Shown: positions 13,748-64,000 of the stretch, piece by piece
Position numbering within the stretch: position 1 is the first letter of the stretch
How the letters are laid out: each line of letters opens with the position of its first letter
NCBI GenBank assembly: GCA_022784465.1
Contig: JALFUR010000008.1
Coordinates: 3,349-67,348 of the forward strand
Length of the DNA stretch: 64,000 nt
Reading direction: 5' to 3'
DNA from: Christensenella sp.
Lineage (GTDB): Bacteria; Bacillota; Clostridia; Christensenellales; UBA3700
The notes under the pieces: model-generated
What the model was told of the DNA's origin: nothing
The model's input: the letters and a program-made list of their open reading frames with translations, nothing else
The model's database searches: none
Made by a program: the position numbers and the translations under genes

Positions 13748-13758
13748 AGCTGCACCTC

Positions 13759-17036: not shown

Positions 17037-17049
17037 AAAAATAGCAGCC

Positions 17050-17769: not shown

Positions 17770-17788
17770 TTTTATTACTTGTATAGAC

Positions 17789-39017: not shown

Positions 39018-39027
39018 ATTTCAACCT

Positions 39028-43618: not shown

Positions 43619-44152
43619 CTATGCAACTGTAACAATAATTGTTGTATCGTATGTAGTTACATCATCAACTAAGGTGTAATTAATTTCTAAATACTTAAAT
43701 GTTTTTGCTGTTGAATCGATAGCCATAATAATTTGAGCATTTTCAATTTGCGATTCAATTCCAAATAAAGCATTTACATCTTTAATTCCTGCCCTTAATT
43801 CTGCTTGAGATTGCAATGTGTTTTCTGTAATGACAATATCACTTAAATTGTCTTCAGAATATTGCATATTTGTTACCTCAGTAGCAAAACTACCATCAAA
43901 TTTAAATCCCTCATATTTAGTTGTTTCTTTTCCGTTTGAATATGTATATATAACTTCTCCATCATTAGAAACATTTATTGAAACATTTGTTGATGTTGCT
44001 GCTGATGTTGCATTAAAGAAGTCTTTAGCTGTAAATCCTAAAGGAATTTTTCCTTCTCCTTGATCTTCTTCTTTATCTTTACATCCAACCAAAGTTCCTA
44101 CAAGAGCAACCATTAATACTATCAATAAAATTAAAATTGTATTCTTTTTCAT
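43619..44152 (-). CDS. Lipoprotein of unknown function
   Basis: MKK + hydrophobic stretch + lipobox LVGC; beta-rich mature part; GGAGG SD. Confidence 0.85.
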   Translation of the reverse strand: MKKNTILILLIVLMVALVGTLVGCKDKEEDQGEGKIPLGFTAKDFFNATSAATSTNVSINVSNDGEVIYTYSNGKETTKYEGFKFDGSFATEVTNMQYSEDNLSDIVITENTLQSQAELRAGIKDVNALFGIESQIENAQIIMAIDSTAKTFKYLEINYTLVDDVTTYDTTIIVTVA

Positions 44153-44163: not shown

Positions 44164-47100
44164 CTATAGGTTTTCCTTCTTTTTCTTTAATGCTATTAAG
44201 CCTACAACTAATAATCCAGCTAAAGAAGCTGATGCTGCTGTTGTTGCAAGAGTATAAGGTCTATTTGTAACCTTTCCTGCAATTGTTTTTGCTGCAACAA
44301 TAGCATTTGATGCACTCTTTAACAATTTCTCATAGTTTTTATCTGCTTTTGCTTTCTTTGTAGCATTAACTATAGCTTTATCTTCTTCAGATACTTTTTC
44401 GTAATTTTCTAACATTTCCTTGTATGTTTCAATATCTTTAAATGTTAATTTATTAGATAATACATCAAGTACTTTATTAATTTCATTAGGATCGTATGTT
44501 AATGTAAACGCAATTCTAATTACTTCTGATTCTAAGTGTGTCTCTGATTCTAATAACTTAATATAGATTTCTTTTCTCAATGAAGAATTGCTTGTAATTG
44601 TAAAATCAAGTTTGTCTGAATCTATAAATGTTACTCCATCTGAACTTACTTGAATAGTTTCGCCTGCTGCTTTACCAGCAACTCTTACATTATTGTAGTT
44701 AATAACTAAATCTTTTACGGTTAGATAGTCGCTTGCAATGTGAGCTTTTGTAATTGTAAATGTCAAATCAACGCTTCCAGCTGAGTAGTTTCCTTCTCCT
44801 CCAGTAACAGTGACTGTATATTCACCAATTTCAATTATCTCTGAAACTTCCTCTCCTAAAGAATTCTTAACTACAAATGTGCATCCTGTTCCTGTTGTAT
44901 TTAATGCAATCTCATCAATTAAATTTCCGCCTGTATATTCTGCAGAAGATTTAACTAATGTCATTGTAGAAATATCTTTTTCTTCAATTGTTAAATCACC
45001 ATTTGCAACAACAGTTAAAATATATTGATCACTATCTTCACCTATTAACTTAGCTGTTACAACAGAACTATATAAACCACAATCTTGTCTCATTGTTTCA
45101 GGATCTAGAGTTTCAAAACTTAATTGAACATCATCCCCTTCAACAATTTCCAAAGAACCCTCTTCATAAGTGAATCCTGTTCCAGTTGGAGCTAATGTAG
45201 TATCACCAAAGCCCATTGTAAAGCTTGAAATATTAACTTTTAATTCTCTTTGAACAATTTCAAATTCTAGCGAAACTTCCTTTGTTGTTGTATATGTATA
45301 ATTTTGATCATCTACATTCATAACAATTACATAGTATTTTCCAACATTAATTGGCTTAATAGAATCATCATAATTGTATCTAACAACAGCAGTAGGTTCA
45401 TCTCCGTTCTTTGTGTTATCAAAGTAAACTTTTACTGACTTTTCTGTTCCATCATAAACTAGATTTTCATTTGCTTCAACTCTGTTTAAAGTTAATCTAA
45501 CTTTTGTCAAAGTAATAGCACCATTAACAGTAACAGTGTAGTTGTTCTTCTTTTCTCCTTCTAATGTAGCAGTAATTACATAAGTACCTACATTTGCTGT
45601 AGCAGCAAATCCATCTGATGCATAAACTGGGTATACATCATCAGGAATACCATCTTTAACATAAATTTGATTTCCTGTTGGTCTAGCTGTAATTACAGAA
45701 GTATCAAACTCTGCGCCATATTCTTTTGTGAATGAACCAATATTATAAGTCAAAGCTTTTGGCTCTACAGTAAATTTAGCAGAAGAATCTACAACAAAGT
45801 TATAGTTGTCAGCGCTTGTACCAGTACAATTAGAGAATATTTCATATTCACCTACATTAGCATCTTCTGCAGCTCCAAGTGATGTAAATTGAATATATAC
45901 ATCATCTCCTTCTATCAAGCTATCTGTACTTAACAATGTATATCCAATAGTACCATCAAAAACTTCACCATAAACTTTAGAAGTAGGATTTGCTTGAACT
46001 TGTACATTTAACTTATTAATTGTAAATAAGTAATATGGCTTATATGTATCAATAACATTAACACAAGAAGAATCCATAATAATCTCATAGTTGTCCAAGT
46101 TTATGTTATTGTCTGCAACAACTATATAATTTCCTGCGTTTTGTGGTTTTTCAACAGGTCTATAGATTTTTGAATTAAATTCAAGTTTATCTTCTTCAGT
46201 ATAAGTATCATCTTCAACATAGTACTTATACTTAATACCCATATCTCTTAAGTTTACATCAGCAATCTTTAATCCTGTTACTGTAGCAAATGTTGAATAT
46301 TCTTTTGTTAAATCAGTAGCTGAATAATCTACAGAATCAATTAAAGCACTTGTATCCATAGAGATAGTAACTTGTAGACCAGTAACCTCATATAACATAT
46401 ATTCTGTAATAGCATTGTAGTTAATATATGCATCAGTATTAAATTCAATTTTTACTACATAAATACCTTTTTTAACAACGCTTGTAGAACTTGTTGAAGT
46501 ATCTGCCACATATTTTCCATCTACGAGTGTAGCTGGATAATATATAAATGAACCGAAGATTTCTTCATATACGCCTCTGTCTAAGTTTGTGCATACACCC
46601 ATCATGATACAAGGAACACCATTATATCCCTTATATGTTTCTGATTCAAAGTATACTTCCTTATCTACGCCGTCGATAGTAATAGTCTTCTTTGGATATA
46701 GAGATGGATCTGCACTATAAATCACATCATATTTTTCATATTTAACGCCCTTTGAGTTTAGATATGATCCGTTAGAATATTCTCTACACATCTTAACGTT
46801 TGCATAGCCGATATCTATATATCTAGTAATCTTACTTACTTGTCCATATTCATCATTTTGGATAGAAATTACAGCATTCTCTCCTTCTAATACCTCACCT
46901 TCTGTACTTGAGATTCCAGATACATTTGGTAATAAGTAATTTCCAGCAACAGAACCATCTGCAAGTGCAATGCTTACTGAATATCTTCCTACTGAAATAT
47001 AATCATTACCAGCTGTATATACGAAGTTTATGGCAGTTGCATCATATACGTTTGAAATAACAATATTAGCATTTGATGCTGTTAATTCATCACCATAGCC

Positions 47101-49967: not shown

Positions 49968-52900
49968 TTAGAATGTTGCCCTATCTTTGCTCGACGTTTT
50001 CTTAACTTGCCTTGTTTGCTGAACAGATTTAACTTTACTTTTTTTCTTTTTCTTCTTGTTACTTGCAGAAGCTGCAATTGCAACAATTATTATTACCACG
50101 ACAACACCAACTCCTATTCCTATATACAAGATGTTATCCATGATAATATCCATTATACTTGGCGTTTCTGTCGTGCCTTCTGTATCTCCAGGCTTAGTGA
50201 TTGCTCCTGTACCCTCTGTTACAACAAGAGTGTTATTGATTACTTGAGATGTTTCATAGTTGCCATCGTTAAATACGATTACTATTCTATATTCTCCTGC
50301 TGGCAAACATCCATTTTTATCTAATTCAATCTTCTTGCCTGTTGCTTTGTCATAATATTCAAATTGACACATATCTTTAGTTTCAAAAACATTTATAAAT
50401 GTTCCACCTAAAGCACTTATGTTAGTTGATGAAGTAATTTGATTAAAGTAAGCTTGAAGTGTATCTAATTGAACTTCAACTGCTTTCTTTGAAATCTTCC
50501 ATGAAGTCTTTATTGTCATGTCTGCATAATCATCACTTGTAAAAGTAATGTATCCTTCATATTCGCCTGCATCTACAGGAAGAGCATTGTCATCATAACT
50601 TACTGTTACTTTAGTTCCTTTATAATATACATATTGAATAACTTTTTGATCTTCATAGCCAGGAACATATTCAACTATCATCTTGCCTGTTGCAGGATCT
50701 GTATCAAAACCTGTAAACTCTGCTGGATGGAAATTACCATCGTATACAATAACTTCCTGTTGCATTACCGGTTTAATACCACCTGACATCGCTGTTTTAT
50801 CAATTATTAATTTTGCAGAATATATTGTTGTTGCATAATTTTCTAATGATAGAACTGCATCAATTGTATAAGTACCAACTTTATTAAACTTAAATGGTTC
50901 GAAAGCTGCATCAGAATAGTCTCTTTCTTCTGATTGATATCTATAAACAAGTCTTGCGCCCTTGTCTAAATATGCTTTTAACGCACTTCCTTCAGAATCA
51001 TCGATAAATAAATCATAATATGTTTCTTCACCTTCGAAATTAACCTTTTTATCATTAAATTCAATGCCTTCAAAAGAAGCTTGTGTAATTGTTAATGTAA
51101 CAACTTTTGATACGCTCTTGTAATTTAAATCACCCGTAAACACAACTCTAAATCTGTATGAGCCAGTATTGATTTGTGTTCCTGGATGCTCTAAATCGAT
51201 TGTTACATAAGTTCTTGTTTCATTATCCCAATATTGAAGAAGGAATACACCTGATTCCATTAATGGTATTTCAGCAACAGTAGAACCTGTCAAATCATAA
51301 TATATGCCATTTATGATAACTGTTGATTTGTATTCTTTTGATTCTACATGAATATTTCCTAATAATACGTCATAAATATGTTTTTCACCATCGTATTTGA
51401 TAGAAATATCATCAGCGCTGATTGTTGTTTCAGCTTGTGTAATATTCAAGTAAGTATCGCCATATTTTTTATCATAGAAATAACTATTTCCACCAAAAGA
51501 AATGTCTACTAAATATCTTCCAACGTCAGATACACTGCTTAAAGGATTTTCTAAATCTACAATATCATTTACAACCTTGTAATAAATAATATCAAAGTCT
51601 TCAAGTGTGTAAACATTATCTGCATATTTTCCTAATGTAACAATGTCATAAGGAATTACATTTTTATTAGCAAATTGTTTAGTTTGTTCTGTTAAATCTA
51701 ACTCTAAGAATACTTTTGTAATAGTAAAGCTAATTATAGAACCAGTATTATAAACAGCATAGTTAGAATCACTAATTGTTAGTTTTGCAAAATATTCACC
51801 AGTTTCAATTACGCCACCTGTTGTGCTTATGTCAATTGGTGTACCTGTGCAGCTGCTATCTTTATAGTAAGTTACAACGACATTTTGCTTAACGCCAAAT
51901 GCATCTAAATAATAACCTGTTAACACATGAGGTAATCCGTTAAATGAAATCTTTGTTGTATAATCTGCATTGCCATCAATTTGTGTTTTGACGCTTACAT
52001 CTTTCTTGACAATGTTTAATTCCATGCTTGTTAGATTTAGTATATAACTGCCTGTATCTATTGCAAACTCGCCTTGAACAGTATATTTGCCAACAGAAGG
52101 ATGAGCTGTAATCTCGCCTTTTTCGTTATATGTTTGTTTAGCATTTGTTATTAGATTTAATTCAACATCCTCATCTGCTACACCCTTAATTGTTATAGAA
52201 GTAGGGATAATTTCTCCATAGATATATTCTGATTTTAATTGATCTGAATAATCTGCCAAATTTACATTTAGTGTGGCCTTATTGATTTTCGTAGCACCTT
52301 CATAATATGAATCGCAATTCTCTAAAGATAAATAATCAACATAAATTGTTCCATCCGTAAAGAATACACGATATTTATTTAGAGAATCTCCTACGCTATC
52401 TACATATAATCTTAATGTTCTATCCCCAGCAGCCATTGAATCATAAATTGCTCTAACTGTTAAATTTGTTTCAATAATTTTTGGAGCTTCAAATGCATAT
52501 GTCTCAGAATATACTATTGAAGTCTTATCCATATCTAATCCATCTTCTTTGTATACTTTTACTGTTAGACCTAAATCAATTGTATCTTTAGCGTCATAAG
52601 TCTTTGTAAATAAATCTCTAAATACCAAAGAAGATAATGCCTGACCATTATAGAACAAATTATCTAATGTTATTCCAATATAAGCTATAACAATTTTTAC
52701 AGACCAGTTTTTGGCTTCTTCTACATCGTCTGCACCATTTAAAACATATCCATCACCATTTGCATAATATGTTTCATAAACGCCTTGTTCGCTTACCAAT
52801 CTCATTTTTAAGAATGAGTTATCTATATCGAAATCTAACACGAATTGATTTGGAATATTAGCTTTTAATTCGGCATCATATCTAATCCAAATTTCTTGGC

Positions 52901-55900
52901 CGTTCTCGTCCAATTCATAAGAATATTCAAGATATGCACCAGAAGCACCGAATATTGGTTTAAAGTTAATATATACTTCAACTGGGCAATATCCTAGTTC
53001 TGCATAATAGCCCAAATATGTTTGATAGTTCAAAGTAATAACATTGTCTAATTGTGTTTGTATTGTATCAATTTTTAAAGTAAATGTTTGCTCTGTTCTA
53101 TTACCAACAGCATCTACATATATTACTTTTTGACTTGATGTAGTACCATCTAACAATAATTGACAATCCCATGTAGTTCCAACCTCAGTTTTTGAAGTAT
53201 GTCCACTACCTGAAGCTAATCCAGATAAATTGTTATCTGTTACTGTATATGTTATTAATACATTTTTCGTTTGCCAATCATCCAAATCAAATGAAGACAA
53301 CTCTAATAGTTCGCTTACTGGGACTGCTTCTTGATATTCGTAATAATGAACATTCTTGATAATAGGAGCCTCGTTATCTATAAAGGCTTGAACTGTAGCT
53401 GTTCCAACTTGCAAATATAAAACATTTGCATTACGAGCGGCTTCTTCTTTTTCTAGTTCGTATGGATTATCTAGATATGCAACGAATGTATATACATATT
53501 TTCCTGTAGTATTAACTGCAACAGATGAAGTGATATTACTTCCCATAGCAATTAGATCACCTTGAGTTGCTGATCCTATAGCATAAGAATAATAATCAAC
53601 TACATTTGCTGTATATGTTCCATCATTTTTATAACCTACCGAAATGGTATCTGATGTCAAATAGTTTGTTGATGTAGAATTACACTCAGCAACAAATAAT
53701 CCTTCAGAATCAGAAAGTATTTCATATTGATATCTATTTGCTTCATCATAATTTGCTAATACTTTTGAACTTTCAGAATAATAACAATAATCAAAATTTG
53801 TACCATTTTCTGTTACTGTCTTTTTAGCTAAATAGGTATAAAGACCTGGCAAATATGTTCTAGATGTATCTGTAACAGGATATTTATAATCTGTTTCGTT
53901 AAAACCGTCCATAATTGTGTATGTAATATCATATGCATACGCATCTTCATAAACAGTTGCTGTTTCAGAATTAGATCTAGTCAAAGCAATTGTAGGAGAA
54001 TTAATAGGATCTCCACTATAATTCTTTGAATAATTAGATACAAAGTTTACCGTATTTCCTGCATTATTGTTGTTTTTATAAGATAAAGAAACAACTTCAC
54101 CAAATGTGTATTTTATTGCACCTTTTCTTGCTGCAGATAACAAGAAAATTTGCGCTCCAACTTCTTCACTTGTCCAAATATTTGTTCCTGAGTACTCTCC
54201 ATAATTATCTTCATTGTACTCGCAGCTCCAAATAAATTTTCCAAGCTTATCCGTTGTGTCAGATAAGAAGAAATTCTTTGATGCTCCAACAACATCATCA
54301 ATTGTTCCTTCACCTATATAATGGCCTCCATCAAAGAAACCATCTGCAACAACTTCAACTCTGATTGGGTCTACTTCTTTTGAATAATCATACTCAAATA
54401 AAACATTACCACCTTGGTTTGTAGCATAAATCTCTGTCCAGTTTCCATAACCAAGCATTCTTCCTGAGTCCAAAGTTGTATAAACCTCAGCGCCAGGAGA
54501 AGTGTTGTTGGCTACGAAAGATAGATAATCATATAGGATAACAGTGTTATCAATTGTTACGCTAGAGCCAATGTAATCAAATAGACATCCAGGTATTACT
54601 TTTATAGCACGTTTATTTACGTCTGTACCTTCTTCCCACCAGTCATTAGTTCTTGAACCATTCCAAGCAGAAATAATACCATCAATTTGTCCAGGTTGGA
54701 TATCAAAAGAAGTATAATTATTCTTATCAGAGATATATAATGTTCCTCCTATTGCTCCACCAGCAAAACCATATGCGCCATGATAACTTCTATTTTTAGG
54801 GCTATGTTCCATTCTCGCATTTACTGAACCATTACCTGTTAGTGAACAATTCTTAACAATTGCTGTTGTTTTTGTAATAGTTCCAACTAATCCTCCACAT
54901 ACAGTCAATGATTTCTTTGTAGGTGTAACGGTGGTGCCATTAGACGAACCTTCTGCGGCTGCCGTAATACCACCATAATTATTAATTGTAACTCTTTCTA
55001 ATCTAGAATTATCTGCCATAACGCCAACATATCCACCAACAATAGCTGAATTGTTTCTCATTCCAGTGTTTGAATTTGATGCAGAGTGACATATAGCAAA
55101 CGCACCTGTATTAGATACTGTTAAATTACAATTAAATATTGTTCCACCGTATAATAATCCACAAACTATACCTGCAACTGATGTTGCTTCATAACCTGCT
55201 GGGCTCTCTAAGGCCAAATTTGATTCTGTTAATGTTGAATCAGCGCTATAATCAGAATTCCAAATTATATTAGCATTTAGTATTGTACCTAAGTTTACTG
55301 CACATAACATACCTGCGTATTGATAGCCGTTATAACTTCCATCTGCGCTCATGTTTCCAGCAGTATTTCTATAACTTCCATTATACGAAAGTACAGAACC
55401 TCCTAAAGGAGCAGTTATTGTAATTGTGTAAGCATTACAATCCAAGATTCCAAAGAATGCAGCTGTGGAACTTGAAATTCCTAAAGTTTGCATATTATAG
55501 TCAATATCGCTTGTTAGTATTCCAACATAATATGCATAATCTGAAGAACTACATAAATCGATAAAGCTCTTTAATTCTGTGGCATTAGTAATGTATGTTT
55601 TTGTATATGTACTACCCATATATTTATAACTTGCGCCAAGAGTTGTCATATGGTATCTTCCATCTGAACCTAGCACATAATATCCATCTCTTTCTTCTTG
55701 AATCTTTGCAGCAACAGTTGAACCTGTTTGAATTTGAGAAATAGATAAATCATATAAATATCCGTCTCCACTATTAAATGAAGAAACATATACAGCGGCA
55801 GCAGAAGCTGAATCCGCTTGTTTTGCATTAAAGGTTATACCTATCGACAAAATAAGTACTAAAACCATTAATGCACATATTAAACTTGTTATAAGAGGTA

Positions 55901-55919
55901 ATCTTCTTGTTGTTCTCAT
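49968..55919 (-). CDS. 1983 aa membrane-anchored surface protein, paralog of 44164-49950
   Basis: N-terminal signal; VGGYVG/CGGLVG/AGGAIGG repeats; YDG...(D/N)xGxY...NY MBG-like repeats; C-terminal TM + KKKKKK; GGAGG SD. Confidence 0.8.
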   Translation of the reverse strand: MRTTRRLPLITSLICALMVLVLILSIGITFNAKQADSASAAAVYVSSFNSGDGYLYDLSISQIQTGSTVAAKIQEERDGYYVLGSDGRYHMTTLGASYKYMGSTYTKTYITNATELKSFIDLCSSSDYAYYVGILTSDIDYNMQTLGISSSTAAFFGILDCNAYTITITAPLGGSVLSYNGSYRNTAGNMSADGSYNGYQYAGMLCAVNLGTILNANIIWNSDYSADSTLTESNLALESPAGYEATSVAGIVCGLLYGGTIFNCNLTVSNTGAFAICHSASNSNTGMRNNSAIVGGYVGVMADNSRLERVTINNYGGITAAAEGSSNGTTVTPTKKSLTVCGGLVGTITKTTAIVKNCSLTGNGSVNARMEHSPKNRSYHGAYGFAGGAIGGTLYISDKNNYTSFDIQPGQIDGIISAWNGSRTNDWWEEGTDVNKRAIKVIPGCLFDYIGSSVTIDNTVILYDYLSFVANNTSPGAEVYTTLDSGRMLGYGNWTEIYATNQGGNVLFEYDYSKEVDPIRVEVVADGFFDGGHYIGEGTIDDVVGASKNFFLSDTTDKLGKFIWSCEYNEDNYGEYSGTNIWTSEEVGAQIFLLSAARKGAIKYTFGEVVSLSYKNNNNAGNTVNFVSNYSKNYSGDPINSPTIALTRSNSETATVYEDAYAYDITYTIMDGFNETDYKYPVTDTSRTYLPGLYTYLAKKTVTENGTNFDYCYYSESSKVLANYDEANRYQYEILSDSEGLFVAECNSTSTNYLTSDTISVGYKNDGTYTANVVDYYSYAIGSATQGDLIAMGSNITSSVAVNTTGKYVYTFVAYLDNPYELEKEEAARNANVLYLQVGTATVQAFIDNEAPIIKNVHYYEYQEAVPVSELLELSSFDLDDWQTKNVLITYTVTDNNLSGLASGSGHTSKTEVGTTWDCQLLLDGTTSSQKVIYVDAVGNRTEQTFTLKIDTIQTQLDNVITLNYQTYLGYYAELGYCPVEVYINFKPIFGASGAYLEYSYELDENGQEIWIRYDAELKANIPNQFVLDFDIDNSFLKMRLVSEQGVYETYYANGDGYVLNGADDVEEAKNWSVKIVIAYIGITLDNLFYNGQALSSLVFRDLFTKTYDAKDTIDLGLTVKVYKEDGLDMDKTSIVYSETYAFEAPKIIETNLTVRAIYDSMAAGDRTLRLYVDSVGDSLNKYRVFFTDGTIYVDYLSLENCDSYYEGATKINKATLNVNLADYSDQLKSEYIYGEIIPTSITIKGVADEDVELNLITNAKQTYNEKGEITAHPSVGKYTVQGEFAIDTGSYILNLTSMELNIVKKDVSVKTQIDGNADYTTKISFNGLPHVLTGYYLDAFGVKQNVVVTYYKDSSCTGTPIDISTTGGVIETGEYFAKLTISDSNYAVYNTGSIISFTITKVFLELDLTEQTKQFANKNVIPYDIVTLGKYADNVYTLEDFDIIYYKVVNDIVDLENPLSSVSDVGRYLVDISFGGNSYFYDKKYGDTYLNITQAETTISADDISIKYDGEKHIYDVLLGNIHVESKEYKSTVIINGIYYDLTGSTVAEIPLMESGVFLLQYWDNETRTYVTIDLEHPGTQINTGSYRFRVVFTGDLNYKSVSKVVTLTITQASFEGIEFNDKKVNFEGEETYYDLFIDDSEGSALKAYLDKGARLVYRYQSEERDYSDAAFEPFKFNKVGTYTIDAVLSLENYATTIYSAKLIIDKTAMSGGIKPVMQQEVIVYDGNFHPAEFTGFDTDPATGKMIVEYVPGYEDQKVIQYVYYKGTKVTVSYDDNALPVDAGEYEGYITFTSDDYADMTIKTSWKISKKAVEVQLDTLQAYFNQITSSTNISALGGTFINVFETKDMCQFEYYDKATGKKIELDKNGCLPAGEYRIVIVFNDGNYETSQVINNTLVVTEGTGAITKPGDTEGTTETPSIMDIIMDNILYIGIGVGVVVVIIIVAIAASASNKKKKKKSKVKSVQQTRQVKKTSSKDRATF

Positions 55920-55932: not shown

Positions 55933-58900
55933 CTACATTACATAAACTGTAATAGTTTGTTTTTGAACCAAAGTTCCGCTACCATATGCAACTGTTACTG
56001 TTGCTTGCATTTCATTTGAAATTACAAGTTTAGTATAAGTTGTATTTGCATTGTATAGAACTCCGCTTCCTGTTAGTGTTACTTCTGTTTTTCCAGTTGG
56101 ATCATATGTGTAGTAAGTACCAGAAGATGTTGCTGTAACTGTAGCTACACTTCTTGTATAGTAAGTTGTTGAAGAACTATAATTTGATCCTGTCAATTCA
56201 ACTTCTATAAATTGTTCATTATGAGGTACATAATATGTTCCGTTTGCTGGTACTCCTTCACCTGTATATTCTTCAAATGAATAATATATTGCTTCAGCAT
56301 CATAATCAACTCCATTTCCTCTTAGAGTAACAGAATTGTAAGAACCATCAATATAGAATGAACCAGCTGTAGATGCATCAACTTCTTGTGCTACATAGTC
56401 AAACTTTGTTCTATTTCTTGAACCAGCAGCATAACCGTAATTTGTTGAGCCATTACGTAATGTTGTCAAATCAACCAAACATTCTACAAATTCACTTGTT
56501 CCATCTGTGAAGTATACTTTTAGATTTCTTAATGCCTTACCTGTTCTTTGTTCAGCTTCACTTAAATTTGTTCCGCCGTACATTAATTGGAAGAAGAAAC
56601 CTTCATCACCAATATGATCTACTACTTTTGGTAAGAACTCAACATCGACTGTTTGTTCAATTTCAAATGGTGTTCCATATCCGAAATAGAAGTATACAGT
56701 TTCCATTCCACCTTCACTTGTTAAGTTCAATCTTGTAGTATCCCAATATACAGGTAACTCATATGTTGTTACACTATTTTCAATAGTTAACTTACATACT
56801 TTCTCATTATATGTATAAGTATTAGCTACACTGTTATATCCAAATGTTTCATCTGTTCTTAACTTTGTTTTCAATGCAGACAAATCACTTAATGAAACTA
56901 CAGTTTCAGAGTAAGCAGTCTTCTTTGTTAAACCATCTTCATACTCTAATTTTGCAATGTAACTTGTTACATATCCAACATTCAAGTATGGTGTAAATAC
57001 ATCATATGTTAATGAACCATTTTCAGCTATGTTATATGAATATGGATTTATAGCTTCTGCAGTAATTTCAGATGTATCGATAATCATTCTACTTGCAGAT
57101 CTATCTAATACTTCACAAGCAATATTGAAATACAAATCGTTTGTCAAATAACATTTAGCTGTTAATCCTTTTTGTGGTTCCATATTTATTTCAAAATCAT
57201 ATTCCCACTTTACAACTTTCATTGTTCCCATAACGCCGTTTTCGTAAATAACACTTACAGAATCTGGGAATGGTTTTCCGTTTTGGAAATTAACTGTAAC
57301 TGGGTCAATCTTATATGTTCCACCACTATATACAGAACCTTCAAGTAGAACGTCCTTAACAGCAGTTGCATCAACATGAACATTTATCTTGAATTCTTGA
57401 TAGAAAGGTGTAGCGCCCAAATATGAATATGGTTCGATTACGCCAGTCTTATTATATTCAGATATGTCGTATCCGATTGCAATTGTAAATTGGTTATAAT
57501 CTTCTGTGTATACAACATCAAAAGCATCTATTTCATTCCATTTCCATGCTATAGGCATTTCAAGAACTTTTCCGTTTGTAAACTTAATATATGCTGTTGA
57601 AGGATAATAAGAATGCTTATTAGCCAAGTTGTTATAATCGTAAGGATTAATTGTCAATGTAGACTTAGTTAATGCCTCATCGAAGTATACACCAATTATT
57701 TCATTTCTTGACATTGTTATTGTTACAGGTTGAGTCCATGTGAACAAGTCTCCTGATGGATATTGATCTGGGTCAAGAGTAACAGTAACACCTGTTGATG
57801 AATAATCATTATTATTGTTCCAACTATAATCTATAGCATCTGAGATTCCATTCCATTTTACATATACATAATCTGAATAATTATCATAGTTAACTAGAAC
57901 TTGATCAGAATATGGATTTAAATTAGCATACTTATTCATATCTGATTGATACAAATAGAATTCATATGGTTGAACATCCAAAGTATTAATTCTTTCTCCA
58001 AATGAAACTGAAGTAACTTGTTTAGATTTTACATTGAATGTAATAACAATATCTTGCTCTACGTCAGTTCCTTTAGCGATAGTAGCTTTAATCTTATAAG
58101 TTGCTCCTTCAACAGAACCATAATATTCTGGTTTAGTTGAATCCAATCTATAGAATAATTCTTCAGCATTTCCTAAATCCCATAAATCTACTGGCATTGT
58201 TCCAGCATATCCATTTTCATAATAGAAATATAATCTATCTGGAGTATAGTTGCTTAATGCTGTTGTTGTACCATCTTCAGATTTTGTATCAAATTGATAC
58301 AAATCAACTTCAATTACGTTATCTTTAGCACCTGCCATAATAATATCTGATACAGTTGAGTTAAAGTAATGAATTGTCATTCTCTCCTCAGCGCCGTTAG
58401 GGAATAGAACATATACTTCTTCATCCCAGCTTCCGTCTTCTGTAGTATCACACACATAACCATATGTATGGTTAATTGCAGGAAGTCCGGTTAACAAATC
58501 AGTGTCGATAACAAGCTCTCCGTTAATTTCTGATTTTGTATAGAATTGTAAAGTATCTGTAGCAAATCTTCTTGATACATTATCTGCTGTAACAACAGTA
58601 ATATATGGAGGCATTGCTTCATAAACACTCATGCTTAATGGCTTGATTGAAGTAATTTTCTCACCACTTCTTACAACGAATTTAATAGTTAATTCCTTTG
58701 TATTTGCTCCGCCATTAAATGGTGCTGTAGCAACAATTCTATAAGTTCCTGGAGTAGATAAACTCATTGAAGACACATCAGCATCTAATGGAGTTTCTGT
58801 TGATTCGCCTTGTTTTGTGAATCCTTTTACTCTAAATGAGATTGCACTCTTATACAAGTTAGTATTCTCTTGATATGTTGCTTCTTTATTTGTAAAGTAA

Positions 58901-61900
58901 GTATTAATCACATCTTGTAGAGGGTTTAACGAACTTGTAGAATATGGATCATATGTTATTGTAGATGGAATTCCATCCCAAGTTACTGCGCCGTTATGTC
59001 CAACATAATCAGGATTACCAACAGATGGAGATGTATTAAATATATGCAATTCTGTATAATACAAATCTGATCTGTTCTTTTCCGCAGGATTATAAGACAG
59101 CGTACTTTCTCCGTTATAGAACGTATAAGGATTTCCTTCTGGGTCATAAATAGCTGTATTATGGTCATGACAAGTTAGATAAATATTTGTCAATTGTCCA
59201 GATACAAGGTTTAGACCAAGATGAGTTTCATTTGTAACTGCAAATGGTATCAATCTGTTAATAACACTCTTTAATTTTGATTTTAAGTTTGTAATTGCAC
59301 CCATTAATCCAGACAAATCCATTCCGATTAATCCTTTTAAGATATCTCCTAATATATCGTCAACAATAGCATAGATATCATCGAACAATGCACCACCATT
59401 AATTCTATCCCAGAATACTTGAGCTAAATAGTTGCCACTAAATTGGAATGAAGGATTATCCTTAGTCATTTCTTGTAGGTTCAATATTGTTTCTGGTCCA
59501 AAGATGTAATACATCAAACCATCAATCAAATTATTTATTTGATATTCATTAACTGTAATATCTGCATTTAAAATACCTGTTGAAGTTAATGATAATGTTA
59601 TCATGTCGAATAATGATAAGAAATCAAGACTTCCAAACATAGCACTTAATCCGTTTTGAACTGTTAGAATATAGTAACCATAAACTCTTCTTGTTACTGG
59701 TAAGCAAATATAATATGAATATGTTGTTTCTCCTGTTGTTTCATCAGTTACTGCATCTGTTTGATAAATAATTCTTTCTAAAGCAGCAGATGGTTGTGGC
59801 AAATCTGCAAATGTAGCAAAGTTTGTATTAACTGTTAATTGTTGAGTTGTTGCAGTTGAACCACTTTCTACTATTTGATAGTAATTTGAACCATAGAAAT
59901 AATACTTTCCAATATTATCTACATTTGTTTGTCTTGTAAATTCATTAGAAGAGATAATTTCTGTTGCTTTTATTTCTCCAACAGCTACGTTTGTATTTGC
60001 TGCTGATTCATCAATTATATCTTGTGCTTCATCTTCTGGTGTTGTTGGTTCTCCCGTAATTGGATTTGCAAATTTATCAAGCATAGAATCAATGCTAGAT
60101 AACAAACCATCAATTGTTCCAGAAAGCATTGTAACTAAATCTAAGTCAATAGCAAGTTGACCCATTACATCACCAACGTCTACTGAGATACCGCCTAAAA
60201 TTTTCAATGGCAAGAATCCTTTACAAATATTCAAATATAACTTTCCGTCGTTATAATTCAATTCAGCGTATAACCATGTATCAATTGAGCCTGAACCTGT
60301 ATTATTGAATTCGGCTTGGTCAATTGCAGCTACAGTAACCAAGATAGAATCTTTTGCTGCTGTAGAGTTTGTTTTTGCTAAAGCTTTCTTAGCTTTTAAT
60401 TTTTCAATATAAATTCTTGTATATAAAGGCTCGCCTGAAGTAGATGTATATTGATTCAAGTCAATGAATAAACCAATATCCAAGTTCTTTAGAAGAGATC
60501 TAACCATAAATTCTCCACTTACGGCATTCCAGTCTGGAATATTGTCTAGATTCATTTCAAACTTATATGCACCTCTTTCGCCTACGCCTAACGCAACAGT
60601 AATATCTGCAAATACAGCATCTTCAACATTTAAGCTAGCGCCTATTGTTCCTGCAAGTAAATCAATTGCTGCGCTTAAAGATAAATCCATATGCAAATCA
60701 AAACCAAGCAATGTTTGGAAGATTGAATCAAACATTTCTGATGTTAAAGCTAGAGAAATCTTTGTATTGTTTGCAGAAATTGCAGGCAATAACATTCCTA
60801 ATACATCCATTATTGGACTTGTTGCTTCTTGTTGAGATTCACCAGCTGATGCTGTCTCATCAGAAGCAGCTGTCTCGTCAGAAGGTGCGATTTCATCAGC
60901 ATTTGCAATTTCGCTTGCTGGTTCTGTAGGAGTAAGTAAACTATCTACCAAACCATTAACTAATGATGTTAAAGATAAATCACCTAATGAGCCAAGCAAA
61001 TTAGACATAATAACACCTAGTTTAGCAACTATAGTTGAGTTTGCAATTTCGAAATCAAATAAGCCTAATCCGTTTGCATCGATAATGATACTATTTTGAT
61101 ATATATATAGACCAATCCATAGATTTCCTTCATATATCAATTCTAGTTTAATTTGTGTATTCTTGAAATTGTTGAAATCTAAATACCATTGTAATGCCAA
61201 TTGTACTTCTGTATTCCAATCATCAAAGTTAACTTGCATTGGAATAGCAAACGAAGACGCTTGATCAACTACGATATTATCTACAATTCTATTAATATCC
61301 CACAAACTTGATACTGTTGTTGCATCTAAAGTTAAAGTCAAAGATAAGTCTCCGATAACTCTTAATAATGCATCAATAATATTGTCATAGAATAATTCGG
61401 TTGACGCTGCCAATGTATTAAACTTAACTTCATGTTCTGCAATTAGTTTTGAAACATCTCCAATTTGAACTGGAGCCTTATCTGTACCCATTTGCAACAT
61501 GATTGATAAGTCTTCATCGAAATAGTTACCTGTTTCTTTTGTCCACTTTGGCAATAATGCGCCGTTTATTCCAAGAGTAATTCCTTCTGTTCTGTTTAAT
61601 ACTAGTTCTACAGAAAGTTTCATTACTTCATTCAAATCAATACCTAAATCAATTCCAAATGAGCCAAGTAAGCTTTGTATAGCAGCAACTGTAACGGCTA
61701 CTGATACAATATTTGAATCGATATTTATCAATAATGCTTGAGCTTTATCAAAAGAAGCAAAAGGATCTTCACCTTCGCCTGCGCTTGCAGGAGTTGACTC
61801 AGCTGGTGGATTTATACCCAATAAAGCAGCCAAATCAAATGTCAAATCCATGATTTCTTTGTCGCCCAATAAACTATATATTAATGTTGTATAATCTAAT

Positions 61901-64000
61901 TCTAAATATAAATCAGGTAACTTAATATTTAATAATCTTAAATTAGATAATTCTATATATACATTATTACCAACACCATATAAACCTAAAATAGTTGTAT
62001 TCTTCTTGAATAATACTTCGTCTCCAATACAAATATCTTGATCATTTGTAGCTATTTCAAGAATTAAGTAGCTCTTTGTAGGATCTTCTTTATTCAAAGC
62101 GATTCCTATATTTAAAGATACGTCCATCTTGAAATCTGCAGTAAAGTTCCATAATAATTGTTTATCTGCAAGTGCTGTTAATCCAAACATTGAAATAAGT
62201 GGAGCAAGATTGTAGCATCCTTGAGAGAAATCAACAGTCAAGTTCATACTTAAATATGTTCCAGACAAAATATTAGTTAATAATTTTGAAACAGAATCAA
62301 CATAGTCCTTTTCTACTATTTGATAATATGTTGTTTCAGGATCGTATTCTACTTTTCCTTCTCCTGTTCCTAATTCAACTTTTGTATATTCTTTTGTTGT
62401 ATTGTTATAAGTATAGAAAGTACCTGTTGTCTTATTAGACAATCCAGTAGCAACTTTACGCTCATGCGTTCTATACAAAATATATCCTTCTAAGTTAGTT
62501 TCTGCACCATATACTCCGTTATAAGAAGTTCCACCTAATTCAGGATTAAACTTATCTAAATGCTCAGAATTATAGCACAACATAAAGCTATGTAGAGAAA
62601 TACCTACACTTAGGCCTTCAACAGGTATACTTGTTTTTACAAACTCACCTTCATCGTGACCATAACCAATAACCCATTCGTTGTTATATACAAACGCATA
62701 TTGTTTACCCTTTGAGTTTTTTGGAGCGTTTTCTGGTAGAATTCCTGTTGCAATTGAATCAGCTTTATATACATAAATAGACTCATTATCATAACCTATT
62801 AATACTTCTTCAGTATATAAGTTATCTAAATAATATTTATCTCCTTGTACATAAACTATACAATAATTATCTATAGAATCCTCAGGTGTTAAAACAAGTT
62901 CGCTGGTCATTTCTTTTGTTGTATAAATAGTTGTTCCATTTGAGTAAACAACACTCTTATAAGAAGCTTTTTGACCAACATACCAATAACCATCTTCGCC
63001 GATAAATCCATCTCTAGAATCAACAGCAGCAGAGATATCTATAGATTCAAATCCATCTTCAGAGAAGTTCAAATCTACTCTTGCAATCATGCCATCTGGC
63101 CAAGTAAAGCCTAAATCTCCAGCCAAACTTGTTAATGCTTTCCAGAATATTGCATTTATAGATAATACAATTGCCGTTTGATCATCGTTAGTTCCAAACA
63201 AATCGCCAAAACCAACAATAGAACCAATTGACTTTAATAGAGTAATAACATTTGTAGAAACTTGGTAGTTACCAAATTCATCATATGCTAAAGCAACGCA
63301 TTCTACTGAATCATAAATTTCAATTTCTTCCTCAGTTAATTCTTCGTTTGCTGAAGAAAGAACAGATTCTTCTTGGTTTACTCTTTGACTTCTTAAGTCA
63401 GCCCAGTTAACCCAATCTGCCATTCCTAAAGTCTCCTTAAATAATTTATCAAGAGCATTAGTAACTAGGTTTGTAACATACTGAACTATACTTGGAATGC
63501 CATCTAGATTAATCTTGATGTTGCTTCCTGCATAATATCTATCAAGCAAATGATCTACGTTAACATATAATCCACCATCCATATAGTAAGCACCAATAAG
63601 TGGTGTAGTATCAACGTATTCACGAGTTACAGCATCAATTAAATACAACTCTAACATCAATAAGTTGTTATCAACTAATTTTTCCTCTCCATTTTCTGTA
63701 ACATATGTTTCATTGCCATAATTTAAATCAAAATCAATTGCCGCTTCAAGTCTTAATCCTGTTGAAGCGTTCATTACTAAAACATTTTCTGGTAGTATTT
63801 GTTGAGCCATAATTGAATTAATTGCAGCTCCTAGGTCTACTGCCTCACCTGTATCTATAACTAAATCTAAAGAAAGAGCAATATTTGTAAGACTAAAAGG
63901 TTCGAAATCTATATTATCATAGACTCTTTGTGGGATACCGATATCAAGTTTTGCTGTTTGATAGCTACGATCCATATTAACAGCACAACGTAGAATTTCT
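55933..64000 (-). CDS. Giant (>2688 aa) repetitive cell-envelope protein, 5' end outside the window
   Basis: Frame stays open upstream of ATG 63975 to the edge (..EILRCAVN-M) with no SD; repeated amphipathic beta modules, then Big_4-like repeats (PxxVxVxYxNG...MxVxW). Confidence 0.8.
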   Translation of the reverse strand, partial: EILRCAVNMDRSYQTAKLDIGIPQRVYDNIDFEPFSLTNIALSLDLVIDTGEAVDLGAAINSIMAQQILPENVLVMNASTGLRLEAAIDFDLNYGNETYVTENGEEKLVDNNLLMLELYLIDAVTREYVDTTPLIGAYYMDGGLYVNVDHLLDRYYAGSNIKINLDGIPSIVQYVTNLVTNALDKLFKETLGMADWVNWADLRSQRVNQEESVLSSANEELTEEEIEIYDSVECVALAYDEFGNYQVSTNVITLLKSIGSIVGFGDLFGTNDDQTAIVLSINAIFWKALTSLAGDLGFTWPDGMIARVDLNFSEDGFESIDISAAVDSRDGFIGEDGYWYVGQKASYKSVVYSNGTTIYTTKEMTSELVLTPEDSIDNYCIVYVQGDKYYLDNLYTEEVLIGYDNESIYVYKADSIATGILPENAPKNSKGKQYAFVYNNEWVIGYGHDEGEFVKTSIPVEGLSVGISLHSFMLCYNSEHLDKFNPELGGTSYNGVYGAETNLEGYILYRTHERKVATGLSNKTTGTFYTYNNTTKEYTKVELGTGEGKVEYDPETTYYQIVEKDYVDSVSKLLTNILSGTYLSMNLTVDFSQGCYNLAPLISMFGLTALADKQLLWNFTADFKMDVSLNIGIALNKEDPTKSYLILEIATNDQDICIGDEVLFKKNTTILGLYGVGNNVYIELSNLRLLNIKLPDLYLELDYTTLIYSLLGDKEIMDLTFDLAALLGINPPAESTPASAGEGEDPFASFDKAQALLINIDSNIVSVAVTVAAIQSLLGSFGIDLGIDLNEVMKLSVELVLNRTEGITLGINGALLPKWTKETGNYFDEDLSIMLQMGTDKAPVQIGDVSKLIAEHEVKFNTLAASTELFYDNIIDALLRVIGDLSLTLTLDATTVSSLWDINRIVDNIVVDQASSFAIPMQVNFDDWNTEVQLALQWYLDFNNFKNTQIKLELIYEGNLWIGLYIYQNSIIIDANGLGLFDFEIANSTIVAKLGVIMSNLLGSLGDLSLTSLVNGLVDSLLTPTEPASEIANADEIAPSDETAASDETASAGESQQEATSPIMDVLGMLLPAISANNTKISLALTSEMFDSIFQTLLGFDLHMDLSLSAAIDLLAGTIGASLNVEDAVFADITVALGVGERGAYKFEMNLDNIPDWNAVSGEFMVRSLLKNLDIGLFIDLNQYTSTSGEPLYTRIYIEKLKAKKALAKTNSTAAKDSILVTVAAIDQAEFNNTGSGSIDTWLYAELNYNDGKLYLNICKGFLPLKILGGISVDVGDVMGQLAIDLDLVTMLSGTIDGLLSSIDSMLDKFANPITGEPTTPEDEAQDIIDESAANTNVAVGEIKATEIISSNEFTRQTNVDNIGKYYFYGSNYYQIVESGSTATTQQLTVNTNFATFADLPQPSAALERIIYQTDAVTDETTGETTYSYYICLPVTRRVYGYYILTVQNGLSAMFGSLDFLSLFDMITLSLTSTGILNADITVNEYQINNLIDGLMYYIFGPETILNLQEMTKDNPSFQFSGNYLAQVFWDRINGGALFDDIYAIVDDILGDILKGLIGMDLSGLMGAITNLKSKLKSVINRLIPFAVTNETHLGLNLVSGQLTNIYLTCHDHNTAIYDPEGNPYTFYNGESTLSYNPAEKNRSDLYYTELHIFNTSPSVGNPDYVGHNGAVTWDGIPSTITYDPYSTSSLNPLQDVINTYFTNKEATYQENTNLYKSAISFRVKGFTKQGESTETPLDADVSSMSLSTPGTYRIVATAPFNGGANTKELTIKFVVRSGEKITSIKPLSMSVYEAMPPYITVVTADNVSRRFATDTLQFYTKSEINGELVIDTDLLTGLPAINHTYGYVCDTTEDGSWDEEVYVLFPNGAEERMTIHYFNSTVSDIIMAGAKDNVIEVDLYQFDTKSEDGTTTALSNYTPDRLYFYYENGYAGTMPVDLWDLGNAEELFYRLDSTKPEYYGSVEGATYKIKATIAKGTDVEQDIVITFNVKSKQVTSVSFGERINTLDVQPYEFYLYQSDMNKYANLNPYSDQVLVNYDNYSDYVYVKWNGISDAIDYSWNNNNDYSSTGVTVTLDPDQYPSGDLFTWTQPVTITMSRNEIIGVYFDEALTKSTLTINPYDYNNLANKHSYYPSTAYIKFTNGKVLEMPIAWKWNEIDAFDVVYTEDYNQFTIAIGYDISEYNKTGVIEPYSYLGATPFYQEFKINVHVDATAVKDVLLEGSVYSGGTYKIDPVTVNFQNGKPFPDSVSVIYENGVMGTMKVVKWEYDFEINMEPQKGLTAKCYLTNDLYFNIACEVLDRSASRMIIDTSEITAEAINPYSYNIAENGSLTYDVFTPYLNVGYVTSYIAKLEYEDGLTKKTAYSETVVSLSDLSALKTKLRTDETFGYNSVANTYTYNEKVCKLTIENSVTTYELPVYWDTTRLNLTSEGGMETVYFYFGYGTPFEIEQTVDVEFLPKVVDHIGDEGFFFQLMYGGTNLSEAEQRTGKALRNLKVYFTDGTSEFVECLVDLTTLRNGSTNYGYAAGSRNRTKFDYVAQEVDASTAGSFYIDGSYNSVTLRGNGVDYDAEAIYYSFEEYTGEGVPANGTYYVPHNEQFIEVELTGSNYSSSTTYYTRSVATVTATSSGTYYTYDPTGKTEVTLTGSGVLYNANTTYTKLVISNEMQATVTVAYGSGTLVQKQTITVYVM
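60851..60904. repeat. Degenerate 18-bp in-frame tandem repeat (about 3 copies) in an acidic linker
   Basis: gctgtctcatcagaagca / gctgtctcgtcagaaggt / gcgatttcatcagcattt, encoding ADEIAP-SDETAA-SDETAS. Confidence 0.65.

What the first reader, a model, noticed from the sequence alone, without database searches (positions are those of the whole stretch)
59150..64000. Tandem ~300-500 aa amphipathic beta-sheet modules in the giant protein: possible lipid-binding or transfer conduit
Seen: at least four diverged repeats. Each has long strands with alternating hydrophobic residues ending in a hairpin motif: LIGAYYMDGGLYVNV (~63560-63600), ILGLYGVGNNVYIEL (~61945-61993), WIGLYIYQNSIIIDA (~61075-61120), WLYAELNYNDGKLYLNI (~60225-60277). 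An amphipathic helix, an acidic Pro/Ala/Glu linker and a strand-helix-strand block follow (IVLSINAIFWKAL / VSVAVTVAAIQSLL / ISLALTSEMFDSIF / ADITVNEYQINNLI). Established: LolA/LppX-type carriers and repeating beta-groove bridges (AsmA/TamB/VPS13) use one-faced hydrophobic sheets lidded by helices. Inference: this could be a chain of lipid-binding cavities outside the membrane, which would be unexpected in a presumed monoderm.
Basis: partly seen in the sequence, partly recalled or inferred. Interest (0 to 1): 0.75.

Follow-up and report, generated by a model that had tools for sequence, protein, structure and literature searches.

The report
Novel repeat module, giant surface lipoprotein
The stretch encodes five ancient copies of an undescribed ~300-residue domain inside a 3,077-residue membrane-anchored surface protein of a small-genome pig-gut Clostridia bacterium; it most likely builds a long surface fibre, and whether it also holds lipids could not be tested.

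Summary
The minus-strand gene runs off the window end. In full it encodes a 3,077-aa lipoprotein: signal peptide, lipobox Cys27, Thr/Pro linker. Residues 136-1788 hold five homologous modules of about 190-330 aa. BLASTP misses the repeat. Profile-profile comparison finds it (up to 97.6%, E 3e-12; reversed and neighbour-protein controls below 3%), and so does an iterative HMM.

The module matches no Pfam, NCBIfam or PDB entry and shows no sequence relation to TamB, YhdP or DUF6583. It occurs only in giant lipoproteins (2,300-12,531 aa) of two families of one Clostridia order, in 5 to 19 copies. The gene heads a conserved operon with two more giants and a small lipoprotein, next to a two-component system.

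Best reading: a variable-length segmented surface fibre. The lipid-conduit idea stays open. The modules are unusually hydrophobic and the lineage lacks fatty-acid synthesis, which keeps the idea alive without showing it.

The parts
55933..64000 (-). Giant lipoprotein gene A, the part inside the window (residues 390-3077 plus the stop). The full gene runs to window coordinate 65166 and encodes 3,077 aa.
   Evidence: signal peptide, lipobox Cys27 and Thr/Pro linker seen; Cys27 present in at least 90% of 17 aligned relatives
63922..64000 (-). Module M1 (residues 136-415), last 26 residues only. The rest, including its hairpin (residues 206-219), lies beyond the window end.
   Evidence: joins the iterative HMM at iteration 4; hhalign M1-M4 53%, M1-M5 52%
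62971..63891 (-). Module M2 (residues 426-732). Hairpin at 63556-63600, acidic linker at 63310-63378, strand-helix-strand block at 63133-63171.
62290..62970 (-). Tyr/Trp/Gly-rich beta insert between M2 and M3 (residues 733-959). It is largely missing in three more distant relatives (20-29% covered).
   Evidence: its residues 902-951 match C-terminal residues 3004-3048 (86%)
61372..62289 (-). Module M3 (residues 960-1265). Hairpin at 61948-61992, acidic linker at 61750-61815, strand-helix-strand block at 61666-61707.
60370..61371 (-). Module M4 (residues 1266-1599). Hairpin at 61075-61119, acidic linker at 60814-60933, strand-helix-strand block at 60718-60759.
59803..60366 (-). Module M5 (residues 1601-1788), a shorter copy covering model positions 68-217. 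Hairpin at 60226-60276, acidic linker at 59992-60063.
   Evidence: joins the iterative HMM at iteration 7, E 4.4e-4; hhalign M1-M5 52%
59137..59802 (-). Post-M5 region (residues 1789-2010).
   Evidence: weak match of residues 1804-1888 to the module model, iE 0.0037
55936..59136 (-). C-terminal beta-rich region (residues 2011-3077), less hydrophobic, with its own diverged repeats and a sub-threshold Big_4 signal.
49968..55919 (-). Giant B (1,983 aa, N-terminal membrane anchor). It starts 13 nt after A and does not carry the module.
44164..49950 (-). Giant C (1,928 aa, N-terminal membrane anchor, sub-threshold MBG_2 match). It does not carry the module.
43619..44152 (-). Small lipoprotein (177 aa), the last gene of the tightly spaced A-B-C-lipoprotein run.

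Best explanation
Gene A encodes a cell-surface fibre. Shown: it has a Sec signal peptide with a lipobox cysteine, and the genome has Lgt and LspA, so the protein is most likely lipid-anchored in the outer leaflet of the only membrane. A Thr/Pro-rich linker of about 65 residues follows. Then come five homologous alpha/beta modules (residues 136-1788). Each has a one-faced amphipathic beta-meander that ends in a conserved hairpin, then amphipathic helices, a poorly conserved acidic loop, and a second strand/helix half. The protein ends in a ~1,070-residue beta-rich region. Inferred: the linker crosses the cell wall, the modules form a segmented, strongly acidic stalk whose length is set by the copy number (5 to 19 in relatives), and the stalk holds the C-terminal region away from the cell for contact with a partner surface. 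A probably acts together with the co-transcribed giants B and C and the small lipoprotein, under the adjacent two-component system.
For: Anchor: the N-terminus has a signal peptide and lipobox. Cys27 is present in at least 90% of 17 aligned relatives. Lgt and LspA are present. There is no further membrane-span-like segment.

Walled monoderm: no Omp85 or TamB; two PBPs and MurB are present.

Repeat: with controls (0 of 66 decoys).

Beta-meander: of the top 50 plmDCA couplings, 16 fall on four antiparallel ladders.

Copy number varies with a kept order M1-M2-(M3)n-M4-M5. The orthologs have 5 copies. P0017 and P0018 have 12, with nine tandem M3-type copies at a ~255-aa period. P0041 has 14. The 7,280-, 7,368-, 11,348- and 12,531-aa proteins have 19, 17, 9 and 10 detected copies.

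The module was found only inside giants. A module profile against proteins of 149-585 aa returned 1 hit, a contig-cut fragment. Of 51 representatives among 1.84 billion, nearly all are 2,000-7,116 aa.

Surface-protein company: Flg_new in 3 of 13 relatives scanned (one of them just under Pfam's cut-off) and Big_4 in 5 of 13. A has a sub-threshold Big_4 signal in its C-terminal part.

The order ZnR-RR-HK-A-B-C-lipoprotein is kept in two genera whose A proteins are only about 33% identical.

Real, constrained gene: 33 of the 40 listed strain differences are synonymous, and its sequence is present in contigs of two pig-gut metatranscriptome runs.
Against: No three-dimensional model could be made, so 'rod-like' and 'segmented' are inferences from sequence. 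No known adhesive domain was found; Big_4 is below Pfam's cut-off. The modules are far more hydrophobic (43-44% AILMFVWC, mean hydropathy above 0) than the protein's own C-terminal part or typical stalk domains, which a purely structural stalk does not explain. The repeats are ancient (about 19% identity), unlike the near-identical repeats of classical variable-length stalks. Conservation is even along the protein, with no hypervariable tip as many adhesins show. No binding partner is known. RNA-library contigs do not prove transcription.
Confidence: 0.5

Rival explanations
1. Lipid carrier or conduit. Each module would enclose a hydrophobic cavity, or adjacent modules would form a groove, and the chain would bind or pass fatty acids or lipids between the environment (or a neighbouring cell) and the membrane of a bacterium that cannot make its own fatty acids.
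For: The strands are strictly one-faced over 474 copies. Module mean hydropathy is +0.1 to +0.2 with no membrane spans, higher than TamB or YhdP. The share of period-2 amphipathic windows (13-14%) is in the range of YhdP and TamB (13-18%). No ketoacyl synthase was found in the own genome or in 0 of 24 same-family genomes, against 7 of 16 sampled other families of the order, and in only 1 of 5 module-bearing genomes of the second family. DegV (two copies) and PlsX are present. The Atlas model of a relative's fragment lists LolA and DUF4292 clusters among weak neighbours.
Against: No sequence or profile relation to any lipid-binding family: Pfam at E<=10 on single modules, PDB profiles, TamB and YhdP at most 1.5%. 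There is no second membrane to bridge. By pattern inspection about a quarter of each module looks helical, unlike the nearly all-beta AsmA-like grooves; this was not computed by a predictor. Nine of the 16 other families sampled also lack the synthase yet lack this protein, so the protein is not needed for that lifestyle. The two module-bearing lineages amount to two evolutionary events, not thirty. The Atlas model is poor (pLDDT 0.50) and its TM scores are at most 0.42.
Confidence: 0.15
2. Envelope coat or scaffold. A, B, C and the small lipoprotein would assemble into a fixed surface layer or wall-associated lattice that protects or shapes the cell, with no specific external ligand.
For: Four tightly spaced, co-oriented genes with 11-17 nt gaps. 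All four products carry N-terminal membrane anchors or lipoboxes. The set is collinear in five further genomes of the genus and in genomes of two other genera. Conservation is even along A, without a variable tip. The protein is strongly acidic, with a net charge of -234.
Against: The module copy number varies from 5 to 19 between lineages, which fits a length-tunable projection better than a fixed lattice. No S-layer or wall-binding family was detected. B homologs were found in only 7 of 15 same-family genomes searched with that query. No interaction among the four proteins was tested.
Confidence: 0.2
3. The repeat is a chance resemblance of hydrophobic beta-rich segments and not a real domain family.
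For: BLASTP self-comparison finds nothing at E<=1. Single-module HMMs hit the other modules only at domain E-values from 4e-4 to 0.5.
Against: Profile-profile scores of 37-90 stand against 16-25 for reversed controls and under 20 for neighbour giants. All alignments are in one register. The iterative HMM closes over all five modules with at most 1 decoy hit. Relatives hold nine tandem copies at a regular ~255-aa period.
Confidence: 0.01

Closest known systems
Fibrillar adhesins and variable-length 'Periscope' surface proteins of Gram-positive bacteria (for example SasG/Aap, Sgo_0707; definition read in passages of PMC9210967; PMC8201768 seen as a search listing only)
   Same: Very long secreted protein. 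Cell-surface anchor at one end. A central run of repeated domains whose number differs between relatives. A different beta-rich region at the far end. Thr-rich and acidic composition.
   Different: The anchor is an N-terminal lipid anchor, not a C-terminal LPXTG. The repeat unit is a ~250-330-residue alpha/beta module with no match to any known stalk domain, against the usual 70-120-residue Ig-like or SHIRT-type units. The copies are about 19% identical, not near-identical. No recognised adhesive domain. The modules are unusually hydrophobic.
AsmA-like / repeating beta-groove lipid bridges (TamB, YhdP, YdbH; VPS13, ATG2; passages of PMC10345924)
   Same: Long protein built of repeated amphipathic antiparallel strands, with loops that often begin with a helix. 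Length scales with the number of repeats. The period-2 hydrophobic signal is of similar strength.
   Different: No sequence or profile similarity. The organism has no outer membrane to bridge. The anchor is a lipoprotein signal rather than an N-terminal membrane helix. More helix per unit by inspection. A continuous groove was not shown.
LolA / LolB / LppX / LprG-type lipid-binding half-barrels
   Same: By my inspection, a comparable number of strands (about 11-13) and helices (3-5) per unit. One-faced hydrophobic sheet. A LolA cluster appears among weak structural neighbours of a poor Atlas model. LolA-like folds are known in monoderm Clostridia (GerS; abstract of 10.1101/2025.01.13.632879 in the listing).
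   Different: No Pfam or PDB sequence match. The units are about 50% longer. They occur only as 5-19 tandem copies inside giants and never alone. A cavity was not shown.
DUF6583 (PF20224), membrane-anchored Bacillota proteins of unknown function
   Same: Best structural neighbours (TM about 0.40 over about 240 residues) and a feature-based neighbour (0.85) of the Atlas model of a relative's M4-M5 fragment.
   Different: hhalign of all five module profiles against three DUF6583 proteins gave at most 0.2%. The family was found in only 2 of 151 genomes of the class and not in this genome. The only paper holding the term is unrelated by its title.

Membership tests
Bacterial lipoprotein (Lgt/LspA pathway) | N-terminal signal peptide ending in a lipobox with an invariant Cys | tested here: met
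   The N-terminus has a hydrophobic core (19-residue hydropathy 3.04) followed by L-S-A-C27. Cys27 is present in at least 90% of 17 aligned relatives. Lipoboxes are visible in 5 of 7 further giants. The lipobox pattern itself is recalled knowledge.
Bacterial lipoprotein (Lgt/LspA pathway) | The genome encodes Lgt and signal peptidase II | tested here: met
   PF01790 at 5.9e-49 and PF01252 at 3.8e-28, both above the curated cut-offs.
Fibrillar adhesin (as defined in PMC9210967) | Large length and a cell-surface anchor | tested here: met
   3,077 aa with a lipoprotein anchor.
Fibrillar adhesin (as defined in PMC9210967) | Repetitive region of repeated (stalk) domains | tested here: met
   Five homologous modules and 5-19 in relatives. 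None is a known stalk domain.
Fibrillar adhesin (as defined in PMC9210967) | The repeats fold into a rod-like stalk | not testable with these tools
Fibrillar adhesin (as defined in PMC9210967) | An adhesive region | tested here: inconclusive
   No known adhesive domain. Only a Big_4 signal at 19.4 bits, below the 22.1-bit cut-off. The C-terminal region has its own repeats.
Periscope proteins | Highly identical tandem repeats whose number varies between strains | tested here: not met
   The modules are about 19% identical and BLASTP finds no self-hit. Number variation was seen between species and genera, not examined between strains.
AsmA-like / RBG lipid-transfer proteins | Match to the AsmA, AsmA_2, TamB, DUF3971 or Chorein_N family models | tested here: not met
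   No Pfam family on the whole protein at E<=0.01 or on single modules at E<=10. hhalign against E. coli TamB and YhdP gave at most 1.5%.
AsmA-like / RBG lipid-transfer proteins | Bridges two membranes (inner to outer, or organelle to organelle) | tested here: not met
   No Omp85 and no TamB in a 98% complete genome. PBPs and MurB are present.
AsmA-like / RBG lipid-transfer proteins | Continuous hydrophobic groove made of repeated units of about five antiparallel strands plus a loop | not testable with these tools
   An antiparallel meander of at least four strands is supported by coevolution. Groove continuity needs a model.
LolA / LppX / LprG lipid-binding fold | Sequence match to PF03548, PF07161 or to solved members | tested here: not met
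   Pfam and PDB profile searches A3, A5 and A6 gave nothing.
LolA / LppX / LprG lipid-binding fold | Unclosed beta-barrel with a helical lid enclosing a hydrophobic cavity | not testable with these tools
   The only lead is weak: a LolA cluster at TM 0.22/0.42 to an Atlas model of pLDDT 0.50.

The most novel reading that the evidence does not exclude
The modules are a new family of lipid-binding units. Strung 5-19 in a row on the surface of wall-bearing, single-membrane gut Clostridia that have lost fatty-acid synthesis, they would capture fatty acids or lipids from the gut lumen or from neighbouring cells and hand them towards the membrane. That would be a monoderm counterpart of bridge-like lipid transport.
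Probability: 0.12. Interest if true: 0.85.

Novelty: new variant of a known kind. Interest (0 to 1): 0.45.

Why it matters
These bacteria have genomes of 1.3-1.9 Mb, yet they spend about 9 kb on this gene and about 21 kb on its operon. Relatives spend up to 38 kb on a single such gene, so the protein must matter for life in the gut. Its main building block is a domain with no family name, no solved relative and no paper found in the searches made. Naming and folding it would annotate several hundred kilobases of 'dark' sequence in gut metagenomes. It would also show how reduced-genome, fatty-acid-dependent Clostridia touch their surroundings. If the hydrophobic modules do carry lipids, this would be the first bridge-like lipid system outside double-membrane cells.

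Tried and rejected
Searches and comparisons that gave nothing:
- BLASTP self-comparison: no repeat at E<=1.
- Single-module HMMs against the protein: only marginal cross-hits.
- Pfam on the whole protein, single modules, the insert and the C-terminal pieces: nothing above cut-off. NCBIfam: nothing.
- PDB by sequence (three chance hits at E 0.23-0.67) and by three profiles: nothing real.
- ESM Atlas on residues 950-1850: scores at most 0.86, leads only.
- ESM Atlas on fragment P0038: the held model is poor. The DUF6583 and LolA neighbours are leads only. DUF6583 was then rejected at the sequence level.
- TamB and YhdP by hhalign: rejected.
- Standalone single-module proteins: none found. That search is word-filtered and scored only 8,000 candidates.

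Coevolution: I first read long-range couplings as the C-terminal half of a module packing on the sheet face. An enrichment test showed these couplings are at chance level, so I withdrew that reading.

Tools that did not run:
No model was made, and therefore no fold search.
- Complex prediction (M3 against M4, to ask whether adjacent modules pack) never entered the queue. There is no verdict.

RNA: contigs of two metatranscriptome runs cover 29 and 27 of 30 bins, but contigs cannot show transcription or its level.

Literature: searches for this family listed nothing that, by title or abstract, describes it.
Full report
WHAT IS THERE.

The finding lies in one long minus-strand reading frame, window 55933-64000, that is still open at the window's end. 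The window is contig C7:3349-67348 of a 1,588,862-base, 15-contig genome rated 98% complete. In the contig the frame continues to window coordinate 65166 and gives a 3,077-residue protein.

The N-terminus has a basic start, a hydrophobic core (19-residue hydropathy 3.04, the only membrane-span-like segment in the protein) and a lipobox ending in Cys27. Cys27 is kept in at least 90% of 17 aligned relatives. A Thr/Pro-rich linker follows, up to about residue 95. The genome has Lgt and signal peptidase II.

It has no Omp85 and no TamB, while it does have two penicillin-binding proteins and MurB. The organism is therefore a walled, single-membrane bacterium, and the protein is most likely a lipid-anchored surface protein.

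THE REPEAT IS REAL.

BLASTP of the protein against itself finds nothing at E<=1. I collected 18 relatives, aligned 17 of them (A1) and compared 160-residue profile windows with hhalign, 253 pairs in all. The top hits fall into one register: M3 against M4 at 96% (E 1.6e-9), M2 against M4 at 91%, and M2 against M3 at 79%.

With whole modules the probabilities were:
- M3-M4: 97.6% (E 3.2e-12)
- M2-M4: 95.0%
- M2-M3: 81.8%
- M1-M4: 53.1%
- M1-M5: 51.7%
- M1-M3: 14.6%
- M4-M5: 14.5%
- M2-M5: 10.1%
- M3-M5: 3.6%
- M1-M2: 1.0%

The ten reversed-profile controls gave 0.3-2.9% (scores 15.9-24.9, against 21-90 for the real pairs). As an empirical null, profiles of the two neighbouring giants B and C against M2-M4 gave at most 0.9%.

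An iterative HMM seeded with M3 orthologs, run over 84 family sequences, recruited M4 (5e-25) and M2 (1.9e-4) at iteration 2, M1 at iteration 4 (7.9e-4) and M5 at iteration 7 (4.4e-4). Reversed decoys gave at most one hit. The final module limits are residues 136-415, 426-732, 960-1265, 1265-1599 and 1601-1788.

A fifth copy (M1) straddles the window end. A possible sixth fragment (residues 1804-1888, iE 0.0037) is doubtful.

Only the fourth listed block (residues 1868-1881) is not part of a secure copy.

ANATOMY OF A MODULE.

Pooling 474 copies from 91 family sequences gives these figures:
- Odd positions of strands b0, b2, b3 and b10 are 83-88% hydrophobic, and even positions 9-36%.
- The even positions of b0, b2 and b10 are 28-32% Asp/Glu.
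- The hairpin b4-b5 is the most conserved element, at 1.40 and 1.64 bits per column, against 0.47-1.29 for all other elements.
- The acidic linker is among the least conserved elements (0.63 bits).

Direct-coupling analysis supports four antiparallel ladders: b0 with b1/b2, b2 with b3, b3 with b4, and b10 with b11. I ran a mean-field version and a pseudo-likelihood version (346 copies, effective number 295). Sixteen of the top 50 couplings lie on these ladders.

I first thought that the couplings also showed the second half of the module packing on the sheet's hydrophobic face. A count showed such pairs to be at chance level (7 of the top 50 against 8.2 expected, and 13 of 100 against 16.4). 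The tertiary arrangement is therefore unknown.

The modules are unusually hydrophobic for an exported, soluble-type region:
- Modules: 43-44% AILMFVWC, mean hydropathy +0.1 to +0.2.
- The same protein's C-terminal third: 32%, -0.36.
- E. coli TamB and YhdP: 38-39%, -0.23 to -0.33.

The mature protein is very acidic, with a net charge of -234.

WHAT IT IS NOT, BY SEQUENCE.

- No Pfam family on the whole protein or on single modules at E<=10.
- No NCBIfam family.
- No solved structure by phmmer or by three profiles.
- hhalign of the five module profiles against TamB and YhdP gave at most 1.5%.

The ESM Atlas holds a 441-residue fragment of a relative (M4 plus part of M5), with a poor model (pLDDT 0.50). 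Its nearest structural clusters are DUF6583-type Bacillota proteins (TM about 0.40). Further down the list are a LolA cluster (TM 0.22/0.42) and a DUF4292 cluster. These are leads only. At the sequence level DUF6583 is unrelated (at most 0.2%).

WHERE IT OCCURS.

Against 1.84 billion representative proteins, residues 950-1850 find only 51 proteins at E<=1e-3, nearly all of them 2,000-7,116 residues long.

Among 41 related genomes, 20 have the protein: the own genome, 19 of 24 others of the same family, and 0 of 16 sampled other families of the order. In a wider sample of the order, 18 of 301 genomes have it: the own genome, 12 of 14 others of the family, and five genomes of one further family. 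In that second family the reading frames are 9,559-12,531 residues long.

A module profile found no standalone single-module protein among proteins of 149-585 residues. The one hit is a contig-cut fragment.

The copy number differs widely while the order M1-M2-(M3)n-M4-M5 is kept:
- 5 copies in the orthologs.
- 12 in P0017 and P0018, with nine tandem M3-type copies at a ~255-residue period.
- 14 in P0041 (0 of 66 decoys hit).
- 19 and 17 in two 7,300-residue proteins.
- 9-11 detectable in the 11,000-12,500-residue ones.

Five of these seven further giants show a lipobox in the printed N-terminus.

CONTEXT.

A is followed after 13 nt by giant B (1,983 aa), after 17 nt by giant C (1,928 aa) and after 11 nt by a 177-residue lipoprotein. 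B and C have N-terminal membrane anchors and lack the module.

Upstream lie a histidine kinase, a response regulator and a zinc-ribbon protein. The order ZnR-RR-HK-A-B-C-lipoprotein-two flavoproteins is kept in a second species of the genus. It is also kept in another genus whose A protein is only about 33% identical; there the zinc-ribbon gene was not matched.

The stretch is held by pig-gut metagenome runs of several studies. It is also present in contigs of two pig-gut metatranscriptome runs, covering 29 and 27 of 30 bins. That is compatible with expression but does not prove it. Of the 40 strain differences listed (70 more were not shown), 33 are synonymous.

MECHANISM.

The best-supported reading is a lipid-anchored, wall-crossing, segmented surface fibre. 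It shares the defining traits of fibrillar adhesins as given in PMC9210967 (passages read): great length, a surface anchor and a repetitive domain region. As in that class, the copy number varies, here between lineages. The far (C-terminal) end is a different beta-rich region, with its own repeats and a sub-threshold Ig-like Big_4 signal. Relatives carry Flg_new and Big_4 domains.

Two parts of this reading are not shown: the rod shape, and any ligand.

THE LIPID IDEA.

It cannot be dismissed. The one-faced sheets, the positive hydropathy and the physiology all point the same way. The genome has no ketoacyl synthase (all 14 control genomes have one), and nor do any of 24 relatives of the family, while 7 of 16 other families sampled do. 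Only 1 of 5 module-bearing genomes of the second family has one, and that is an atypical 894-residue frame. DegV (two copies) and PlsX are present. The lineage must therefore take up fatty acids.

Against this, nine other sampled families also lack the synthase and do without this protein. The two lineages count as two events. There is no second membrane to bridge. No family relationship to any lipid carrier was detected.

I put it at about 0.12-0.15.

EARLIER NOTES OF THIS SCAN.

Searches returned AI notes from other genomes that describe what appear to be relatives. They describe giant lipoproteins labelled Christensenellales with an undescribed 190-300-residue repeat (e1-4887153, e1-4631779, e1-2131032, e1-2831106), and a four-gene operon of three giants plus a small lipoprotein (e1-3568626). 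All read the protein as a surface fibre.

They agree with my results but are not independent evidence. The order name is theirs; my own calls give only 'Clostridia' and 'Clostridiales bacterium' as source names.

VERDICT.

The module is a domain family without a Pfam, NCBIfam or PDB counterpart, and none of the papers listed by my five searches describes it, judged by title or abstract.

Noticed in passing
whole genome G000 and relatives (no window coordinates): No ketoacyl synthase (PF00109) in the own 98%-complete genome or in any of 24 same-family genomes, while 7 of 16 other families of the order have one. DegV (two copies) and PlsX are present. The family appears to depend on outside fatty acids.
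   Followed up: partly
window 43619-64000 and L002:9489-12096: Conserved gene order: zinc-ribbon protein, response regulator, histidine kinase, giant A, giant B, giant C, 177-aa lipoprotein, two FAD proteins. It is kept across genera whose A proteins are only about 33% identical. B and C match no Pfam family, apart from a sub-threshold MBG_2 hit in C.
   Followed up: partly
window 62315-62464 (residues 902-951), 56025-56157 (residues 3004-3048) and 56280-56436 (residues 2911-2963): A short Thr/Tyr-rich hairpin-like repeat occurs in the insert between M2 and M3 and twice near the C-terminus (hhalign 86-90%). It recalls wall- or glycan-binding repeats but matches no Pfam family.
   Followed up: partly
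loci L053-L062 (G262:C9, G444:C50, G309:C4): A second family of the same order carries single reading frames of 11,348, 12,531 and 11,640 residues. They have lipobox N-termini and at least 9-11 copies of the module, and long stretches between the copies remain unassigned.
   Followed up: partly
window 60464-60835 (+): A 123-aa plus-strand ORF lies wholly inside module M4 of the giant gene. It is most likely a chance frame on the opposite strand.
   Followed up: no
window 6791-19489: A run of glycogen/starch genes on the minus strand: alpha-amylase-family proteins, glycogen phosphorylase, starch synthase, two nucleotidyl transferases of GlgC/GlgD type and a branching-enzyme-like protein.
   Followed up: no
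window 37317-40695: A BspA-type leucine-rich-repeat protein (566 aa) and a GH28 glycoside hydrolase lie downstream of the operon. An LRR homolog is also nearby in another genus (G014).
   Followed up: no
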